From: a virus
Length of the DNA stretch: 13,540 nucleotides
Strand: one strand, 5' to 3'
Virus record (IMG/VR): IMGVR_UViG_3300029305_004519
Location: 1 to 13,540 of that record
Shown here: positions 632 through 6,818 of the stretch, piece by piece
Position numbering within the stretch: the stretch's first letter is position 1
How the letters are laid out: every line of letters starts with the position of its first letter
Program-made: the position numbers and the translations under genes
Notes under the pieces: model-generated
What the model saw: the letters and a program-made list of their open reading frames with translations, nothing else
Databases searched by the model: none
Told to the model about the DNA's origin: nothing

Positions 632-1330
632 ATGGATAAGCTAAAACAGATGAAGGAATGCTTAGTTGGCATGGTTGAAGGCCAAGTTTATGGAAACATA
701 GACAAGGTTGACGCGCAAGAGCTAGGCGCCGCCGTGGATATGATTAAAGATTTAAGCGAAGCAATTTATTATTGCACTATTACTGAAGCTATGAAAGATG
801 AGGGCGAAGATAAAGAAAAAGAGGGTAAAGGTAAACATGGCATGATGTATTATCCTCGTACTACTCCTATGTATCATCTTCCTTATCCTATTGAAATGTA
901 TGATCCTCGTATGCGTGAAAGATATAATGATCCCATGTATGCGCAGGGCAATGGTGGATACAATTCAACAAGCACTTCTGGAGGCAATAATGCCCGTGGC
1001 GGCGGTACCCGTGGCTATCGTGAGGGAATGATGCCTATGGATTATTACCCAATGTATAACGATGGTACTATATATGAACAGGGAAATGGTCGTGGTAGCA
1101 ATCGTAATTATTCTGACATGAGAGACCCTCGTGAAGGTCGTAGCGGCGAGCGCCGTAAGATGTACATGGAAGGAAAAGGCATGAAAGATAAAACGCATCA
1201 AATGAAAGAGTTGGAAGCTTACATGCAAGAATTAACGCAAGATATGACTGAAATGATTGCTGACGCAACTCCTGAAGAAAAACAGATGTTGCAGCAAAAG
1301 ATCAGCACTCTTGCTACAAAAATTAAATAA
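632..1330 (+). CDS. Hypothetical 232-aa protein. Helical N- and C-terminal regions flank a low-complexity Met/Tyr/Pro/Gly/Arg/Asn-rich core with repeated PMY / MYD / YYP motifs.
   Basis: ORF with AGGGTGG RBS 7 nt upstream. Stop TAA overlaps the next ATG (TAATG at 1328-1332). Strong compositional bias is visible in the translation. Confidence 0.6.
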   Translation: MDKLKQMKECLVGMVEGQVYGNIDKVDAQELGAAVDMIKDLSEAIYYCTITEAMKDEGEDKEKEGKGKHGMMYYPRTTPMYHLPYPIEMYDPRMRERYNDPMYAQGNGGYNSTSTSGGNNARGGGTRGYREGMMPMDYYPMYNDGTIYEQGNGRGSNRNYSDMRDPREGRSGERRKMYMEGKGMKDKTHQMKELEAYMQELTQDMTEMIADATPEEKQMLQQKISTLATKIK

Positions 1331-1653
1331 TGTTTACTATTAATGGAGAACAATGGTGGATAGTTTTAGTAATGCCATACGACGTTGCACTTTTAATGCC
1401 AAACGGTAACTATGCTATTGGGGCGTGTAATGACTCTACTAAAACTATATATATCAGTAATGAACTTCATGGTGAGGCATTTGAGAAAGTATTGTGTCAT
1501 GAGTTAGTGCATGCCGCGATGTTTGCTTATGATGTCATGTTAGAGCACGATGAAGAGGAGCTAATTGCAGAAATAATTGCAACTTTTGGAGAAGAGATAA
1601 TTGATATTACTGATATAATGTTCGACAAAATAAGAAGAGGAAGATATTATTAA
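1330..1653 (+). CDS. Small (107 aa) putative zinc metallopeptidase-like protein with an HExxH motif (CHELVHAAMF). SprT/WLM-like minimal fold.
   Basis: HELVH motif preceded by ...IYISNEL...EAFEKVL. TAATG translational coupling with the upstream gene. Stop TAA at 1651-1653 lies inside the terminator hairpin. Confidence 0.55.
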   Translation: MFTINGEQWWIVLVMPYDVALLMPNGNYAIGACNDSTKTIYISNELHGEAFEKVLCHELVHAAMFAYDVMLEHDEEELIAEIIATFGEEIIDITDIMFDKIRRGRYY

Positions 1654-1669
1654 TATCTTCCTTTTTTTT
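1638..1669. terminator. Rho-independent terminator shared by the convergent + and − gene blocks.
   Basis: Perfect 12-bp inverted repeat AGGAAGATATTA (1638-1649) / TAATATCTTCCT (1651-1662), followed by T8 on the + strand (1662-1669). On the − strand the same hairpin is followed by a CTTCTTATTTTG tract. The ruvC TAA stop is at 1668-1670. Confidence 0.6.
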
Positions 1670-2174
1670 ACCATGCAGCTGCACTATAATCTTTTTCTTT
1701 TTTTGGATGTAAAAATGCATGACCAATACATACAGCATCGGCTGTGTCATCACTAGTTAAAGATAATCCATATGTTCGATTTGCAAATTCTATATCCTTT
1801 TGTTTTTTCTATTCACGCTTTGAGGCGCGCCCATCCTCAATGCCGCATGTTGAGCGCCAAGAGCTTGGATACACCATTTCAATCTAAACTTCAGGATGTT
1901 TATCATGCATTTCAATATGAATAAACGCCTAAAGATACATAAGTGCACGAAAGGTATTAGTATTTTTACTATGATCTGGAATAACTTCTTCCATCACTAT
2001 TTTTTCAATTTTCATTTGTTCAACTATTGTTAAAATGCCGTCAACCATTTTATGGATTCTTTTATATAAATCGGTTGATGATGCGGTAATACAATTGCAT
2101 ACAAGCAAGTCTTTATCTTTAAACACTGCAAAACCAGTTGCTTTAGTTGAGCAATCTAACGCTAATAAGTACAT
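1668..2174 (-). CDS. ruvC: RuvC-like Holliday junction resolvase, 168 codons, with three in-frame TAG sense codons (plus-strand CTA at 1929-1931, 1884-1886, 1809-1811). Terminates at TAA 1668-1670.
   Basis: N-terminus MYLLALDCSTKATGFAVF is the RuvC fold catalytic Asp motif. After TAG the same frame continues ...AFIHIEMHDKHPEV[TAG]IEMVYPSSWRSTCGMRMGRASKRE[TAG]KKQKDIEFANRTYGLSLTSDDTADAVCIGHAFLHPKKEKDYSAAAW. The C-terminal DDTADAVCIGH matches the conserved RuvC C-terminal acidic/His motif (E. coli DAADALAIAITH). RBS GGAGGTG lies 5 nt upstream of the ATG at 2174. The standard-code ORF track gives only the 81-aa N-terminal piece. Confidence 0.75.
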
Positions 2175-2197: not shown

Positions 2198-2226
2198 ATT
2201 ATACTTAAAAATTTTTATTAAGTCAA
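2198..2226 (-). promoter_or_regulatory. Sigma70-like promoter P(ruvC): TTGACT-17-TATAAT.
   Basis: − strand -35 TTGACT (plus 2221-2226 agtcaa), 17-nt spacer (2204-2220), -10 TATAAT (plus 2198-2203 attata). The -35 is contiguous with the T6 tail of the upstream terminator. RBS and ATG of ruvC follow about 20 nt downstream. Confidence 0.5.
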
Positions 2227-2227
2227 A

Positions 2228-2252
2228 AAAGAGCAGATTAATTCTGCTCTTT
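2228..2252 (-). terminator. Rho-independent terminator ending the dut-containing operon. The stop codon of the upstream small ORF sits in the loop.
   Basis: Stem AAAGAGCAGA (2228-2237) / TCTGCTCTTT (2243-2252), loop TTAAT. On the − strand it is followed by TTTTTT (2225-2230 as aaaaaa on plus) running into the TTGACT -35. Confidence 0.55.
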
Positions 2253-2468
2253 CTATTGTTCTTGTTCTTTTTGAAGTTCTGTATTATATTTTTGAAGTGC
2301 TGTGTTATATTCAAGCTAAGCTTGCATTTGCGCCTCGTTATAGAGATCTTTTAAAATGATTGCCGCTTGATAAATAGGCAAGTGTAAGTCATTAATACCA
2401 TAATTAATAACACGAGCGACTTCTTGTTTAATCTATTCAAAAGCAACCTACTCAGGCATAATAGGCAT
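2238..2468 (-). CDS. Hypothetical 76-aa Gln/Glu/Lys-rich, probably coiled-coil, protein containing four in-frame TAG sense codons (plus CTA at 2448-2450, 2433-2435, 2316-2318, 2253-2255). Ends at TAA 2238-2240.
   Basis: − strand ATG at 2468 preceded by GAGGTG (overlapping the dut TGA). Translation is MPIMPE[TAG]VAFE[TAG]IKQEVARVINYGINDLHLPIYQAAIILKDLYNEAQMQA[TAG]LEYNTALQKYNTELQKEQEQ[TAG]KEQN. There is no TAA/TGA over 77 codons in about 33% GC DNA (chance about 0.015). It has nucleotide-level tandem repeats (TTTTGAAGTnCTGTnTTATAT x2) that correspond to heptad-like NTxLQK repeats. It is invisible to standard-code ORF calling. Confidence 0.5.
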
Positions 2469-2479
2469 TAAACTTCACC

Positions 2480-2965
2480 TCACTTATTTCCGCTAGATCC
2501 AAAACCTCCTACACCACGGGCTGTAGTGCCAATAGAAGTTGTTTCATTGAAAACAATAGGATTGAAGGGTTGAACAATAAGTTGGGCAATTCGTTCTCCA
2601 TGCTCAATTACTTGAATTTGATCTGAAGTATTTTTAAGTGCGACTATTACGGCACCTCGATAGTCTGCATCGATAATGCCTACAGTATTTGCAAGCACAA
2701 GACCGCGTTTTGTTGCATTGCCGCTACGAGGATAGATTGCGCCAAATGTGCCTTGAGGAAGCGCAATGGCAATGCCTGAAGAAATCTTACGTACCTCTCC
2801 CGGCGCCAAAGTAACGCGACTGGCGCCTTCAAGATCTGCATGCAGGTCATATCCAGCCGCCCAATCACTTCCATGAGTTGGCTCTTGCGCAGTCGGCGAA
2901 AGTTTTACATAATCAACAATAGTCGCATAATAATCAATTTGTGGAATAAAATTCATTTCAGTCAT
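2480..2965 (-). CDS. dut: dUTP diphosphatase (trimeric dUTPase).
   Basis: All five dUTPase motifs: AGYDL, PRSG, GIIDADYRG, GERIAQL, RGVGGFGSSG. Stop TGA. Confidence 0.9.
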   Translation of the reverse strand: MTEMNFIPQIDYYATIVDYVKLSPTAQEPTHGSDWAAGYDLHADLEGASRVTLAPGEVRKISSGIAIALPQGTFGAIYPRSGNATKRGLVLANTVGIIDADYRGAVIVALKNTSDQIQVIEHGERIAQLIVQPFNPIVFNETTSIGTTARGVGGFGSSGNK

Positions 2966-3238: not shown

Positions 3239-3508
3239 TCACTTTACAAAACTAAATTTTAATTTAGCTTTGCCATAGCGAATTACTTGTCCATTCTCTG
3301 CATCTTCTAGGATCTTTGCACCATAAGAAGTAGATCCAGAAAAATCAATCTCTACGATATTGTATTTATCTGCAAGAGCATATACAATATCTCGAATATC
3401 ATCTGGTTTTACGCCCATTTGATCAACCAGAGTTCCATCTTTAATTACATAAATCTTTTGAAATGGTGCAGTAGGGCTAGTCCATACAATAATTTTATTA
3501 GTTTCCAT
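3239..3508 (-). CDS. Hypothetical protein (89 aa). Start moved to the internal ATG (METNKIIVW...).
   Basis: The long 127-aa ORF overlaps the upstream gene by 104 nt. The internal ATG at 3508 has a perfect RBS AAGGAGAG plus 5 nt (plus 3514-3520 ctctcctt) and removes the overlap. Stop TGA. Confidence 0.55.
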   Translation of the reverse strand: METNKIIVWTSPTAPFQKIYVIKDGTLVDQMGVKPDDIRDIVYALADKYNIVEIDFSGSTSYGAKILEDAENGQVIRYGKAKLKFSFVK

Positions 3509-3518
3509 TTTTCTCTCC

Positions 3519-3947
3519 TTAATATTCAAGCACTGCTTCTCCATAGGGGAAGAGATAATATGCAAAACATCCTTCAGAGTTACGAATCCACAACTCCCAT
3601 GTATTAGCCTCTTGTTCATCAATTACTAAAATTTCTCCACGATTAGACATACATTCAAGAATATCATTAACTGCGCTCATAACCGTCACTGGAGGAGCTG
3701 ATTTCCAAGTGCTTGTTTTATCAAGATTAAAGACAGTATAATCCTTTAATTCATTACATAAAAGCATTAGATATTTTTGATGGAAGTTATGCGTTACCCA
3801 TTGGCGTAAATGATTTTTAGCCAAGTCAAGCTCAGCTTCTGTAATTACTGGCTCATTTGCCATGAGTTGCTTATTCATTTCATATAAATTACCAAGACTC
3901 ACTTCTGATGTTTGCTTTGGAATTTTATCTTTATAATTAGCTTTCAT
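3519..3947 (-). CDS. Hypothetical protein (142 aa). First gene of the P2 transcription unit.
   Basis: ORF with RBS TAAGGAGCAAGATATG. Stop TAA. Confidence 0.6.
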   Translation of the reverse strand: MKANYKDKIPKQTSEVSLGNLYEMNKQLMANEPVITEAELDLAKNHLRQWVTHNFHQKYLMLLCNELKDYTVFNLDKTSTWKSAPPVTVMSAVNDILECMSNRGEILVIDEQEANTWELWIRNSEGCFAYYLFPYGEAVLEY

Positions 3948-4679: not shown

Positions 4680-6613
4680 TTATTAATTGGCTCCCATTTT
4701 CTCATTTTATATTCATTAGTACGCTCTTTAGACCATGTCTTAATAGGTGTATAAAATCCAACGATGCGAGTATATTCTGTTTCTATTGGTTTACCGCAGC
4801 AAGGACACGTTGTACCATAGAAAGCGTGATTATTCTCGCAGGCTTGAATCTTTGTGTTAAATGCAAAATAGGTTACTCCAGCATCAGAGATATAATTTAC
4901 CATATCCCAAGCTTTCTCGAAGCTATCAAAAGGAGAGTCGATATTCGCATGAAGAATAGATCCTCCATTGCAATAGCCATCAAACTCTGCGGCAATGCGT
5001 ACGCGTTCAGCAAGAGTTGTTTGAATGCCAAGAGGAATAAATTGGTTGCCATAAAGCGGAAGATCAAATACCTCTGCCTCGGGATAGAAGAATTTATCTT
5101 TTTTCATTAACTTAGCGGCAGCGCTTTCTCCTGGTATCTGCTCTGTATTTACATGATAATCAGCACCTGTTTCCAAAATAAAATCATCTGCCACTTGGCG
5201 CATGGTTTCAAAAATTTTCTTGCCAAGATTAGATGCTTGTTCTGTATAATAGACATTGCCAAATTCATCTGTACGAGTATAGCCAAAACGCTTCATTGTT
5301 TCATAAACTCCAATAAACCCAATGGTGTTATAAAGATGTTCAAAATCAACCAGCCCATTGGAAAAATTTGGTAAAAGCCCCTTCTCAACATTTCGCTTAA
5401 TAATATTTCTAACGCAGTGTAGAGCTTCAAGATTTAATCTTGTGCGATACTTAAGTTGTTCTAAATATTCTTCTTCGGTATCTACATCAAGCGCAAGGCG
5501 CGCAAGATTGATTGTAGACACCTTAACAGAGCCTACTTTAAGTGCTGTGCCGCCAATTGAGTTAAAGTAGCCTAAATCTTTAATGTCACTCTTCAAACGG
5601 CAACAGTTAGAAAGTGAAGTTACTGAATCGTCAATAAATAAATTACTGTCAGACCAGCGCATATTATGCTTTACGGCCCAGCGTGCAAATTCCTCATCCT
5701 GGAACTTACCTTCTTGTTTTAGAAGTGAGATTGAAAGCACTGGAAAAGTAAACATGTTCTTATCTCTAATATCCGCAACAGTCTCCATGTACCATTTTTG
5801 GAATTCAATAACTTCTTCCTCATAGTCAATCATAAATTCTCCATTCGGGAACTCACTGCCGCCAAATAGAGCTTCATAATAAGGTCTATCAAATACACTG
5901 GTATTCGTAAATGCAGATTGTGATCCATCACGAACATAGGGCTGATTCACTGCATAAACAAAGCGTTGGAAATTTTGGCGTGCGTATTTCTCTCCATTTC
6001 CGCTACTCTTGATACCAAGATAATCTTCTTCTATATCTTTATGCCAGAAGTAATACATATATGGAATAAGATTAGGAAGTCCGACCGCACCCGAAGAGCG
6101 ATTAGAAGCATAGCTAATAAACTCCTTAACAAAATCAACAAAAGTAGTTAAATGTTGAGCTGGCTCTGGATTAAACGGTGCGCCGATGAAGTACAATCCT
6201 TTTTCAGCTAGGTCTTTGAGATCATAAGCAAAACAATAATGTTTAAATGTTGAGGTATCAGCGTCATGCATATAAAGTTGACCAATCCACTCTGCGCGCA
6301 GCCATTCGTTTGCGCGTTTGAATCCAAAGTGTTTTTGCATTTCATAGTGAATTTTGTTATAAGCTAATAATTTTCTATGAGGTTTAGGCATTTCGTTTAA
6401 GAGAGTTACGATATCCTTTTTACTTACATTGCTATTGCCATCAATGCTTGCGTTAGCGACGACTTTAGTATCGATAAAGTTATCTATGAAATCGGTATAT
6501 GATAATTGATCATCATCAAAACCATTTAACCTAGCTAAATCAGTTCCGTACTCTCCCTAAAGTTTATTATAAGCAGTAACAAAATTCTTTTTTAATCTAA
6601 CATTAATTTCCAT
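4676..6613 (-). CDS. nrdD: Anaerobic (class III) ribonucleoside-triphosphate reductase NrdD, 645 codons, with one in-frame TAG sense codon at codon 19 (plus CTA 6557-6559). The track ORF 4676..6391 is only the portion after the first downstream Met.
   Basis: Strong RBS AAGGAGCAACAAAAGAATG at 6613. Frame reads MEINVRLKKNFVTAYNKL[TAG]GEYGTDLARLNGFDDDQLSYTDFIDNF...NEMPKPHRK... continuous with the 571-aa ORF. The ATG at 6391 has no SD. C-terminal Zn ribbon (C...CPCCGKP) and glycyl-radical motif TRIVGFY (resembling RVCGY). Stop TGA. Confidence 0.85.
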
Positions 6614-6818
6614 TCTTTTGTTGCTCCTTAATCCATTTGATAGCTTCAGTAAATTTATAAGTTACATTATCAACCTGTAAAATAGGTGCAGAACGGAACC
6701 CCATTGCCGCCATTACTGCTTGATCAGATACTGTGGTATATTGAATCTAAGCGGCATCTAATTTTGTTTTAAGAACTTTACATTGCGGGCAACCCGTTGA
6801 GTATAAAGTAATATTCAT
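6603..6818 (-). CDS. nrdH: NrdH / glutaredoxin-like redoxin (71 codons) with one in-frame TAG at codon 24 (plus CTA 6747-6749).
   Basis: RBS GGAGAAAATCAAATG. Translation is MNITLYSTGCPQCKVLKTKLDAA[TAG]IQYTTVSDQAVMAAMGFRSAPILQVDNVTYKFTEAIKWIKEQQKNGN. The CPQC active site lies N-terminal of the TAG and the cis-Pro region (SAPIL) C-terminal of it, so both halves of the thioredoxin fold need readthrough. It overlaps the nrdD start by 11 nt. Stop TAA. Confidence 0.7.

What the first reader, a model, noticed from the sequence alone, without database searches (positions are those of the whole stretch)
2238..2468. Hidden small gene with four TAG codons whose TAA stop sits in a terminator loop
The 240-nt region between dut and the terminator looks non-coding under the standard code. 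With TAG read as sense it gives a clean 76-aa Gln/Glu/Lys-rich protein. It has an SD (GAGGTG) and heptad-like NTxLQK(Y/E) repeats that are also visible as a tandem DNA repeat. Its TAA is exactly in the loop of the operon terminator. At about 5% TAG it is the most TAG-dense ORF in the window.
Basis: seen in the sequence. Interest (0 to 1): 0.55.

Follow-up and report, generated by a model that had tools for sequence, protein, structure and literature searches.

The report
Hidden TAG-recoded small phage gene
The apparently empty stretch after the dUTPase gene holds a real 76-residue phage gene that is visible only when TAG is read as glutamine. Its stop codon inside a terminator loop is an inherited, ordinary packing arrangement in this phage group, not a special device.

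Summary
Window 2238-2468 (- strand) is a genuine gene in a TAG-recoded phage that is distantly SPbeta-like and probably infects Bacillota.

- **Family.** With TAG read as Gln, the 76-aa product belongs to an unannotated small-protein family. There are 25 representatives at E<=1e-3, the best non-self at 1.7e-17.
- **Synteny.** In all 11 distinct loci examined the gene lies directly after dut and before a terminator, a promoter and a ruvC-like gene.
- **TAG = Gln.** Two of the four TAG codons fall on columns where Gln is the commonest residue. dN/dS against the closest relative is about 0.19.
- **Structure.** AlphaFold gives a confident helical hairpin with a long C-terminal helix (pLDDT 96). 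No informative fold or Pfam match was found.
- **Stop in the loop.** This is real but not special to this gene. All 11 orthologues share it, whether they carry 0 or 4 TAGs. The same hairpin follows dut directly in two relatives that lack the gene. Another gene in the window, and SPbeta yorZ and yoqU, show the same arrangement.
- **TAG load.** Four TAGs is the family maximum; the others carry 0-2.
- **Most likely consequence (inferred).** The protein is made only once TAG suppression is active, like the neighbouring TAG-rich ruvC.
- **Function.** Unknown. It is probably a dispensable, fast-evolving factor that works through protein-protein contacts.

The parts
2238..2468 (-). Coding sequence of the small gene. 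It has 76 codons plus TAA, and TAG is read as Gln. The product is MPIMPEQVAFEQIKQEVARVINYGINDLHLPIYQAAIILKDLYNEAQMQAQLEYNTALQKYNTELQKEQEQQKEQN.
   Evidence: Searches give the ORF. Searches give an identical database protein (P0001) and 24 further homologues. One search gives dN/dS of about 0.19 against L092. One search gives the AlphaFold model: pLDDT 96, helices at residues 6-26 and 32-75.
2448..2450 (-). In-frame TAG, codon 7.
   Evidence: Read directly from the sequence. TAG occupies the same aligned position in P0005 (L099) and P0007 (L101). The closest relative, P0002, has CAA (Gln) here.
2433..2435 (-). In-frame TAG, codon 12.
   Evidence: The aligned column is Gln in 14 of 25 homologues.
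2316..2318 (-). In-frame TAG, codon 51.
   Evidence: The aligned column is Gln in 11 of 25 homologues. P0002 has CAA here.
2253..2255 (-). In-frame TAG, codon 72, lying immediately 5' of the terminator stem.
   Evidence: Read directly from the sequence. The column is variable, with Gln in 3 of 23 homologues.
2476..2481 (-). Shine-Dalgarno GAGGTG, 7 nt upstream of the ATG. It overlaps the dut stop codon TGA at 2480-2482.
   Evidence: L092 and L099 have the same TGAGGTG arrangement. L090, L095 and L101 instead have an overlapping dut stop and small-gene start.
2268..2311 (-). Tandem repeat of 21 bp, 2.1 copies, 91% match. It encodes two heptads, NTALQKY and NTELQKE.
   Evidence: The corresponding heptads in L092 are not alike at the DNA level, so the repeat is specific to this lineage.
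2228..2252 (-). Intrinsic-terminator-like hairpin with a 10-12 bp stem and loop AUUAA at 2238-2242. The 5' arm encodes the last four codons (K-E-Q-N). The TAA stop at 2238-2240 lies in the loop. A U-tract follows.
   Evidence: -14.9 kcal/mol, z = -4.3. An equivalent hairpin with the stop in the loop is present in all 10 other gene-bearing loci. It is also present in L006 and L008, which lack the gene.
2198..2226 (-). Sigma-A/sigma-70-like promoter TTGACT-17-TATAAT (11 of 12 matches). Its -35 box overlaps the terminator T-tract. It serves the downstream ruvC-like gene.
   Evidence: TTGAYT-17-TATA(A/T)T is conserved in all 10 loci compared.
2480..2965 (-). dUTPase gene (dut), the upstream neighbour in the same operon. 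It has no in-frame TAG.
   Evidence: Pfam PF00692, E = 4.9e-27..
1668..2174 (-). RuvC-like resolvase gene, the downstream single-gene unit. It has 3 in-frame TAGs, which is 3 of its 5 Gln codons.
   Evidence: DUF3882/RuvC; 2-6 TAGs in every recoded relative, aligning with Gln or TAG.

Best explanation
Window 2238-2468 (-) is a real protein-coding gene of a phage that decodes TAG as glutamine. The phage is distantly SPbeta-like and probably infects gut Bacillota.

**The gene and its place.** It is the last cistron of the nucleotide-metabolism operon (dNMP kinase, Grx, NrdD, NrdG ... dut). It is translated from its own Shine-Dalgarno sequence, 11 nt after the dut stop.

**The protein.** The product is a 76-residue acidic protein rich in Gln, Glu and Lys. 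It folds as a helical hairpin whose second helix extends about 20 residues beyond the hairpin. It belongs to an unannotated small-protein family found only at this position in this phage group.

**The 3' end.** The last four codons double as the 5' arm of the operon's intrinsic terminator, and the stop codon lies in the loop. This is an inherited, space-saving overlap. The terminator is the older and primary element, because it follows dut directly in relatives that lack the gene.

**The TAG codons.** The four TAGs are synonymous replacements of Gln codons. Their practical effect (inferred, not shown) is that ribosomes stop at codon 7 until the phage's TAG-suppression state is established. The protein would then be made late, in step with the adjacent TAG-rich ruvC-like resolvase.

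**What the protein does (inferred).** It most likely acts through helix-helix or coiled-coil contacts with a partner protein. It looks like a dispensable, fast-evolving accessory factor rather than an enzyme or a DNA-binding protein.

**Confidence by part.** About 0.93 that this is a real gene read with TAG as sense, and that the terminator overlap is an ordinary inherited arrangement. About 0.5 that the TAGs delay its translation in a way that matters. About 0.4 for the proposed mode of action of the protein. The single figure of 0.85 refers to the first claim together with the ordinary reading of the overlap.
For: **Shown**
- **Homology.** phmmer against 1.84 billion representatives gives 25 proteins at E<=1e-3. 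The best non-self hit scores 1.7e-17 at 60% identity over the full length. A profile search finds further members. The family alignment has conserved N22, E45 and a hydrophobic pattern.
- **Synteny.** The order dut -> small gene -> hairpin/promoter -> ruvC holds in L007, L086, L087, L089, L090, L092, L095, L098, L099 and L101.
- **Coding constraint.** Against L092, dN/dS is about 0.19 and differences by codon position are 28/14/38.
- **TAG = Gln.** The TAG columns are enriched for Gln. TAG positions in ruvC and NrdD align with Gln or TAG in relatives. None of the 22 genes in the window ends in TAG.
- **Compensatory change.** In L101 the terminator arm reads GAG-TAG with a matching CTACTC partner, where others have GAG-CAG/CTGCTC. 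The stem is kept while CAG becomes TAG.
- **Bias among stop triplets.** The frame holds four TAGs and no internal TAA, although the gene's standard Gln codons are 8 CAA and 1 CAG.
- **Structure.** The AlphaFold model has pLDDT 96.
- **Terminator.** z = -4.3. The hairpin plus TTGAYT-17-TATAAT is conserved in 10 loci, including L006 and L008 which lack the gene.
- **Phage lineage and host.** The Pol III alpha-like protein is 39.6% identical to SPbeta YorL. Relatives lie in metagenome bins labelled Bacilli, Clostridium and Erysipelotrichaceae.
- **Accessory and fast-evolving.** The gene is absent from L006 and L008. It is 35-45% identical in loci where neighbouring genes are 70-96% identical.

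**Inferred**
- Late, suppression-dependent translation follows the model of Borges et al. (bioRxiv 10.1101/2021.08.26.457843).
Against: - **No direct evidence of expression.** There is no peptide, ribosome-footprint or transcript 3'-end evidence.
- **No suppressor tRNA found.** None was found in the window or in the roughly 100 kb of related loci held. The decoding machinery is therefore assumed.
- **Gating is not conserved.** Six of 11 orthologues have no TAG at all, so TAG-gating is not a conserved property of the gene. It may be neutral drift in a genome where TAG and CAG are synonymous.
- **PHROG link is indirect.** The window protein itself does not reach E<0.01 against any PHROG; only relatives do.
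Confidence: 0.85

Rival explanations
1. **A terminator gated by the state of the genetic code.** The ORF would work mainly as a sensor. Before TAG suppression, ribosomes release at codon 7 and the hairpin forms, so the dut operon terminates. After the code switch, ribosomes run into the hairpin, because the stop is in its loop. They prevent it from folding, and transcription reads through into ruvC.
For: - The stop codon lies inside the hairpin, and two TAGs lie within the first 12 codons.
- In E. coli, moving a stop codon from 28 to 5 bp upstream of terminator tR2 lowered termination from about 90% to under 10%. Uncoupling translation restored it (PMC4824070).
- The downstream gene, ruvC, is itself TAG-rich.
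- TAG at aligned codon 6/7 recurs in three divergent family members.
Against: - The stop-in-loop layout is identical in six orthologues with no TAG, so it did not evolve as a TAG sensor.
- ruvC has its own near-consensus promoter, conserved in all 10 loci, directly after the hairpin.
- The probable hosts are Bacillota. In B. subtilis, RNA polymerase outruns ribosomes (runaway transcription, PMC13323073). A ribosome would therefore seldom be at the hairpin when it forms.
- The protein sequence is under purifying selection, so the ORF is not just a leader.
Confidence: 0.06
2. **A decaying pseudogene.** The gene is dispensable in this phage group. In this lineage the four TAGs would be true nonsense mutations in an operon otherwise written in standard code, so only a hexapeptide is made.
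For: - The gene is absent from L006 and L008.
- The rest of the operon is nearly free of TAG, with 2 TAGs among 55 Gln codons. The gene's 4 of 13 differs from this at Fisher p = 0.01.
- Its TAG count is the highest in the family.
Against: - There is no frameshift and no internal TAA or TGA in 76 codons. The gene's standard Gln codons are mostly CAA, and one C->T change turns CAA into TAA.
- All conserved family positions are kept, and the model is highly confident.
- dN/dS is about 0.19.
- NrdD and Grx in the same operon each carry one in-frame TAG and are clearly functional genes.
- Five identical copies were recovered from independent samples.
Confidence: 0.04
3. **A chance open frame in a non-coding spacer, or a non-coding RNA.** The region would hold regulatory RNA or nothing at all.
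For: - A TAA/TGA-free run of this length arises in 4-10% of shuffles.
- Spurious TAG-sense ORFs of similar size exist elsewhere in the window.
Against: - There are protein-level homologues down to E = 1.7e-17 with conserved synteny.
- The substitution pattern is biased to the third codon position.
- Rfam gives only sub-threshold hits, on the opposite strand: sraA at 26.8 bits against a gathering score of 56, and L20_leader at 21.7 against 58.7.
- No ORF of 40 aa or more covers the region on the + strand.
Confidence: 0.01

Closest known systems
TAG->Gln (genetic code 15) recoded gut phages. Sources: Borges et al., bioRxiv 10.1101/2021.08.26.457843; metaproteomic validation in crAss-like phages, PMC9523058; the phAss-1 / 'Phassvirus' group of about 136-kb phages with a Pol III alpha subunit, NrdG and dUTPase, PMC10607447.
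   Same: - In-frame TAGs sit at Gln positions of conserved genes.
- TAG is never used as a terminator.
- TAG use differs sharply between genes. The replication polymerase has 0 TAGs among 54 Gln codons, while ruvC and the small gene are TAG-rich.
- Orthologues differ in which genes are recoded, as reported for phAss-1 relatives.
   Different: - The window has no megablast match (a search that finds only roughly 85% identity or more) in the deposited phage collection. Its nearest deposited polymerase is SPbeta YorL at 39.6%.
- The recoded genes seen here are not structural or lysis genes. They are a small accessory gene and a resolvase.
- No suppressor tRNA lies in the sequence held.
PHROG families phrog_19373 and phrog_11105, small phage proteins of unknown function.
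   Same: 12 and 8 of the 26 family members match these profiles, with best E-values of 4.7e-5 and 2.8e-5.
   Different: - The window protein itself does not reach E<0.01.
- The PHROGs carry no annotation, so they add no functional information.
Intrinsic terminators that overlap the 3' end of the upstream coding sequence. Examples are the SPbeta yorZ and yoqU stem-loops. Ribosome effects on such terminators are described in Li et al. 2016 (PMC4824070), and ribosome-controlled termination at mccA in PMC4231749.
   Same: - The stop codon lies inside the terminator hairpin.
- SPbeta yorZ has its TAA in the loop of its annotated stem-loop, and yoqU has its TGA within its stem-loop.
- The window's own gene at 1330-1653 (+) ends at the apex of hairpin 1638-1662.
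   Different: - Here the overlap is conserved across 11 orthologues of 20-60% identity.
- The terminator T-tract also overlaps the -35 box of the next promoter.
- No regulatory role of the ribosome has been shown here.
[not shown]
   Different: - Sequence identity is only 4-16%.
- Foldseek E-values are all above 0.5.
- The fold is too simple to carry functional or evolutionary meaning.

Membership tests
Gene of a TAG->Gln (code 15) recoded phage | In-frame TAG codons in genes with clear homologues. | tested here: met
   ruvC has 3, NrdD 1, Grx 1 and the small gene 4.
Gene of a TAG->Gln (code 15) recoded phage | TAG positions align with Gln in homologues. | tested here: met
   Small-gene columns 12 and 51 hold Gln in 14/25 and 11/25 homologues, against an 11.8% background. 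TAG positions in ruvC and NrdD align with Q or TAG in 19 of 24 comparisons. The Grx position aligns with Gly.
Gene of a TAG->Gln (code 15) recoded phage | TAG is not used to end genes. | tested here: met
   0 of 22 genes in the window end in TAG; all end in TAA or TGA.
Gene of a TAG->Gln (code 15) recoded phage | A suppressor tRNA(CUA) is encoded by the phage. | tested here: inconclusive
   ARAGORN finds no tRNA in the 13.5-kb window or in 11 related loci. These cover only a small part of genomes of about 125-140 kb.
Gene of a TAG->Gln (code 15) recoded phage | Peptide evidence for Gln at TAG. | not testable with these tools
   This needs metaproteomics of the source samples.
Unannotated small-protein family following dut (alignment A2) | Significant full-length sequence similarity. 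| tested here: met
   phmmer E-values run from 1.7e-17 to 5e-4 for 24 non-self representatives. The profile matches the L007 ORF at 1.2e-11.
Unannotated small-protein family following dut (alignment A2) | Conserved position between dut and the terminator/promoter/ruvC module. | tested here: met
   This holds in 10 of 10 other loci examined.
PHROG 19373 / 11105 | The window protein matches the profile. | tested here: not met
   There are no PHROG hits at E<0.01 for the window protein. 12 and 8 of its relatives do match.
Intrinsic (Rho-independent) terminator | A stable G+C-containing stem-loop followed by a U-tract. | tested here: met
   The stem has 10-12 bp, folds at -14.9 kcal/mol with z = -4.3, and is followed by UUUUUU. 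The consensus scan listed the palindrome on the + strand only.
Intrinsic (Rho-independent) terminator | The structure is kept through sequence change in relatives. | tested here: met
   Stems differ between loci but always form 10-12 pairs at -15 to -17 kcal/mol. The arms are GAGCAGA/TCTGCTC, GAGCGAGA/TCTCGCTC, GAAGTAGCA/TGCTACTTC, GAGTAGGA/TCCTACTC and TGCGGAGA/TCTCCGCA.
Intrinsic (Rho-independent) terminator | Transcripts end at the U-tract. | not testable with these tools
   This needs Term-seq or 3' RACE.
Ribosome-controlled termination / attenuation | The stop codon lies within about 10-15 nt of the hairpin. | tested here: met
   The stop lies in the loop. The distance rule is taken from PMC4824070.
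Ribosome-controlled termination / attenuation | The downstream gene depends on read-through, with no promoter of its own. | tested here: not met
   A conserved TTGAYT-17-TATAAT promoter lies directly after the hairpin in all 10 loci.
Ribosome-controlled termination / attenuation | The gating element (an early TAG) is conserved together with the layout. | tested here: not met
   6 of 11 orthologues have no TAG but the same stop-in-loop layout.
Coiled-coil protein | A heptad hydrophobic seam and oligomerisation. | tested here: inconclusive
   The model has a long helix at residues 32-75, and conserved Tyr residues lie 7 apart at positions 54 and 61. No coiled-coil predictor or multimer model was available.

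The most novel reading that the evidence does not exclude
The early TAG codons and the stop-in-loop terminator might together form a switch that reads the phage's genetic-code state. While TAG still terminates translation, ribosomes leave at codon 7 and the dut operon terminates cleanly. Once TAG is suppressed, ribosomes invade the hairpin, termination weakens, and transcription from the strong early operon floods into ruvC. This would be a natural attenuator driven by codon reassignment rather than by amino-acid supply.
Probability: 0.06. Interest if true: 0.7.

Novelty: new member of a known kind. Interest (0 to 1): 0.3.

Why it matters
- **Annotation.** Standard-code annotation leaves real genes invisible in recoded phages. 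Translating with TAG as Gln and testing for homology recovers them. The family found here is absent from Pfam and NCBIfam and could be added to annotation resources.
- **A natural comparison series.** The orthologues carry 0, 1, 2 or 4 TAGs in the same gene, next to the same terminator and promoter. A consistently TAG-rich ruvC lies alongside. This series could be used to test whether recoded stop codons really time protein production during infection.
- **A general caution.** A stop codon inside a terminator loop should not by itself be read as a regulatory device. In this phage group it is a common, inherited consequence of tight gene packing.

Tried and rejected
- **Deposited phages.** Megablast of the whole window gave no match. 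tblastn of the small protein and of two relatives (P0019, P0013) gave no match even at E<=1-10. No annotated phage carries a detectable homologue.
- **SPbeta synteny.** In SPbeta, dut (yosS) is followed by yosT, a 149-aa regulator, and the resolvase yotM lies elsewhere. The locus is therefore not syntenic there.
- **Viral-contig scans with the small protein.** The search for related loci with the protein alone found nothing. Relatives were reached through dut instead.
- **Identical copies.** The five contigs carrying the identical protein are 100% identical in DNA, so they give no comparative information.
- **Functional ideas considered and dropped.** I considered a uracil-DNA-glycosylase inhibitor (Ugi/p56-like) and a Gam-like nuclease inhibitor, because the protein is small and acidic and lies beside dut and ruvC. 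No fold or sequence support appeared, so neither is proposed.
- **RNA families.** Rfam gave two sub-threshold hits on the + strand over 2159-2261, judged to be chance.
- **tRNAs.** Scans of the window and 11 loci found none.
- **Hairpin alignment.** A gapless MAFFT alignment of the hairpins (A3) was out of structural register. The hairpins were therefore folded one by one, and the count of structure pairs was not used.
Full report
**1. What is in the sequence**

On the - strand, dut (2480-2965; Pfam dUTPase, E = 4.9e-27) ends with TGA. Eleven bases later an ATG at 2468 opens a frame that runs to TAA at 2238-2240. The frame has 76 sense codons, four of them TAG (codons 7, 12, 51 and 72). It contains no internal TAA or TGA.

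- **Shine-Dalgarno.** GAGGTG lies 7 nt upstream of the ATG and overlaps the dut stop codon.
- **Repeat.** A 21-bp tandem repeat (2268-2311, 2.1 copies, 91% match) encodes NTALQKY/NTELQKE.
- **Hairpin.** A stem of 10-12 bp with loop AUUAA spans 2228-2252. It folds at -14.9 kcal/mol, z = -4.3, and 0 of 200 shuffles fold as well. The TAA is the last three loop bases, and the last four codons (AAA GAG CAG AAT) are the 5' arm.
- **Downstream.** The U-tract runs into TTGACT-17-TATAAT (11 of 12 matches). Then come GGAGGTG and a RuvC-like gene (1668-2174; DUF3882/RuvC) that has three in-frame TAGs.

ORF length alone is weak evidence. An open run of this length arises in 4-10% of shuffles, and spurious TAG-sense ORFs of similar size occur elsewhere in the window.

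**2. The window is TAG-recoded**

- None of the 22 genes ends in TAG.
- In-frame TAGs occur in ruvC (3), NrdD (1), a glutaredoxin-like gene (1) and the small gene (4).
- The 1324-aa Pol III alpha-like gene has none among 54 Gln codons.
- TAG positions in ruvC and NrdD align with Gln or TAG in relatives.
- The polymerase is 39.6% identical to SPbeta YorL over its full length. Relatives at 62-79% identity lie in metagenome bins labelled Bacilli, Clostridium and Erysipelotrichaceae.
- The strong Shine-Dalgarno sequences and TTGACA/TATAAT-type promoters also fit a Bacillota host. This last point is an inference.
- No tRNA lies in the sequence held.

**3. The ORF is a real gene**

- **Database copy.** The Gln-substituted translation is present verbatim in the protein collection (P0001). 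The five contigs that carry it are identical in DNA, so they add nothing.
- **Homologues.** An exhaustive phmmer search found 25 representatives at E<=1e-3. The closest are P0002 (1.7e-17, 60% identity, also 76 aa) and P0003 (8e-14). Lengths range from 57 to 99 aa.
- **Alignment.** It shows a conserved N-terminus (IPQNxAFEQxKQEL), a nearly invariant N22 and E45, an LPxY turn and an ILKDLYxEV helix.
- **TAG columns.** Columns 12 and 51 hold Gln in 14/25 and 11/25 homologues, against an 11.8% background. Column 7 is Gln in the nearest relatives.
- **Selection.** Against L092 (P0002) the two 228-nt genes align without gaps. Differences are 28/14/38 at codon positions 1/2/3, and dN/dS is about 0.19, with dS near saturation.
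- **Other explanations.** No ORF of 40 aa or more covers the region on the + strand. Rfam gives only sub-threshold hits there.

**4. Synteny**

Relatives were reached through dut and through family members. They give 10 further distinct loci with the gene: L007, L086, L087, L089, L090, L092, L095, L098, L099 and L101.

- In every one the gene directly follows dut. In L090, L095 and L101 the dut stop and the small-gene start overlap.
- In every one it precedes a hairpin, a promoter and ruvC. L087 has an extra 258-aa gene before ruvC.
- Two relatives lack the gene: L006 (75% dut identity) and L008 (52%). There dut is followed directly by the same kind of hairpin and promoter.
- The gene is thus an accessory cistron inserted, or retained, just upstream of a pre-existing terminator.
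- It evolves faster than its neighbours. It is 35-45% identical in loci where dut, ruvC, NrdD, NrdG and the 83-aa gene are 70-96% identical.

**5. The stop in the loop**

- **Conserved layout.** In all 11 gene-bearing loci the stop codon (TAA, or TGA in L090) lies in the hairpin loop or at its apex, and the last codons form the 5' arm.
- **Stems vary but persist.** The stems differ in sequence yet always form 10-12 pairs at -15 to -17 kcal/mol.
- **A compensatory change.** In L101 the arm reads GAG-TAG-GAT with partner CTACTC, where others have GAG-CAG and CTGCTC. A C-G to U-A change turned CAG into an in-frame TAG. This fits CAG and TAG being synonymous here.
- **C-terminal motif.** The recurrent endings (KEQN, KEQE, KSEN ...) therefore probably reflect the RNA stem as much as the protein. 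L006, without the gene, keeps AAAGAGCGAGAT.
- **Not unique to this gene.** The + strand gene at 1330-1653 ends at the apex of hairpin 1638-1662. In SPbeta, yorZ has its TAA in the loop and yoqU has its TGA within its annotated stem-loop.

The arrangement is an inherited packing feature of this phage group.

**6. TAG load**

| Locus | In-frame TAGs in the small gene |
|---|---|
| Window | 4 |
| L101 | 2 |
| L007, L098, L099 | 1 each |
| L086, L087, L089, L090, L092, L095 | 0 each |

- The window therefore has the family maximum.
- Within the window, 4 of its 13 Gln codons are TAG. The rest of the operon has 2 of 55 (Fisher p = 0.01). ruvC has 3 of 5.
- TAG at aligned codon 6/7 is shared by the window, L099 and L101.
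- ruvC carries 2-6 TAGs in every recoded relative and none in L008.
- This matches the published picture in which replication genes tend to stay in standard code and particular genes accumulate recoded stops (bioRxiv 10.1101/2021.08.26.457843; varied recoding among orthologues in PMC10607447).

That TAGs delay production of this protein until suppression is active is a reasonable inference, not a result. Because six orthologues lack TAGs, it is not a conserved requirement of the gene.

**7. The protein**

- **Model.** AlphaFold2 with the 25-sequence alignment gives pLDDT 96.2. Helix 1 spans residues 6-26, a short turn follows, and helix 2 spans residues 32-75.
- **Composition.** The protein is acidic (11 Asp+Glu against 6 Lys+Arg) and has no hydrophobic segment long enough to span a membrane.
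- **My best guess.** It is a small oligomerising or partner-binding helical protein with an accessory role, possibly at the phage-host interface given its fast evolution. This is explicitly an inference.

**8. Rivals**

- **Code-state-gated attenuator.** This is the most interesting reading that remains open. Li et al. showed that a stop codon 5 bp before a terminator nearly abolishes termination when translation is coupled to transcription (PMC4824070). Against it:
  - the layout is the same in TAG-free orthologues;
  - ruvC has its own conserved promoter;
  - Bacillota such as B. subtilis show runaway transcription (PMC13323073).

  I give it about 6%.
- **Pseudogene.** This reading is contradicted by the intact frame, the absence of internal TAA despite CAA-dominated Gln usage, retention of the conserved residues, and the low dN/dS.
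- **Chance ORF.** This is excluded by the homology.

**9. Verdict**

It is a new, unannotated member of a known kind: a TAG->Gln recoded phage gene whose 3' end overlaps an intrinsic terminator. The terminator overlap is ordinary for this lineage. The unusual point is only the lineage-specific accumulation of four TAGs. Function remains unknown.

Noticed in passing
window 1668-2174 (-), with promoter 2198-2226 and hairpins 2228-2252 and 1638-1662: The RuvC-like resolvase is a single-gene unit boxed between two hairpins. It has a conserved near-consensus promoter whose -35 box overlaps the upstream terminator's T-tract. It carries 2-6 in-frame TAGs in every recoded relative and none in the non-recoded L008. 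It looks like a constitutively transcribed gene whose translation is gated by TAG.
   Followed up: partly
window 1330-1653 (+) and hairpin 1638-1662: This convergent gene, peptidase/SprT-like and 107 aa, also ends with its TAA at the apex of a hairpin. The hairpin lies 5 nt beyond the ruvC stop on the other strand, so it is probably a bidirectional terminator shared by the two convergent units.
   Followed up: partly
L101:1195-1260 (P0007 locus): The terminator 5' arm reads GAG TAG GAT with a complementary CTACTC in the 3' arm, where other loci have GAG CAG and CTGCTC. This compensatory stem change created an in-frame TAG.
   Followed up: yes
window 2448-2450; L099 codon 6; L101 codon 7: TAG occupies the same aligned position near the N-terminus in three family members that are each only about 41-42% identical to the window protein. 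This is either an old shared TAG or recurrent CAG->TAG change at one site.
   Followed up: no
L006:1188-4262; L087:1-1889; L089:20-2689; L008:182-4380; L098:292-1008; L087:5340-6116: Relatives carry insertions that the window lacks. NrdD is enlarged to 1024 aa in L006, and it is split by extra genes of about 315 aa in L087 and L089. L098 has a GIY-YIG gene between the 83-aa gene and dut. L087 has a 258-aa gene between the promoter and ruvC. These are presumably inteins, introns or homing endonucleases.
   Followed up: no
window 3239-3622 (-) versus 3239-3508: The mechanical 127-aa TTG ORF overlaps the 142-aa gene at 3519-3947. Relatives have an 85-90-aa gene here, so the true start is probably internal, near 3508. 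This gene is the other fast-evolving member of the operon, at 31-56% identity.
   Followed up: no
window 6603-6818 (-), codon 24: The single TAG in the glutaredoxin-like gene aligns with Gly, not Gln, in three relatives. It is the one TAG position in the window that does not fit a simple Gln-for-Gln replacement.
   Followed up: no
window 2268-2311: The two heptads are 91% identical in DNA in the window. The corresponding heptads in the 60%-identical relative L092 are not alike, and the two proteins have the same length. This suggests a recent intragenic conversion rather than an added duplication.
   Followed up: partly
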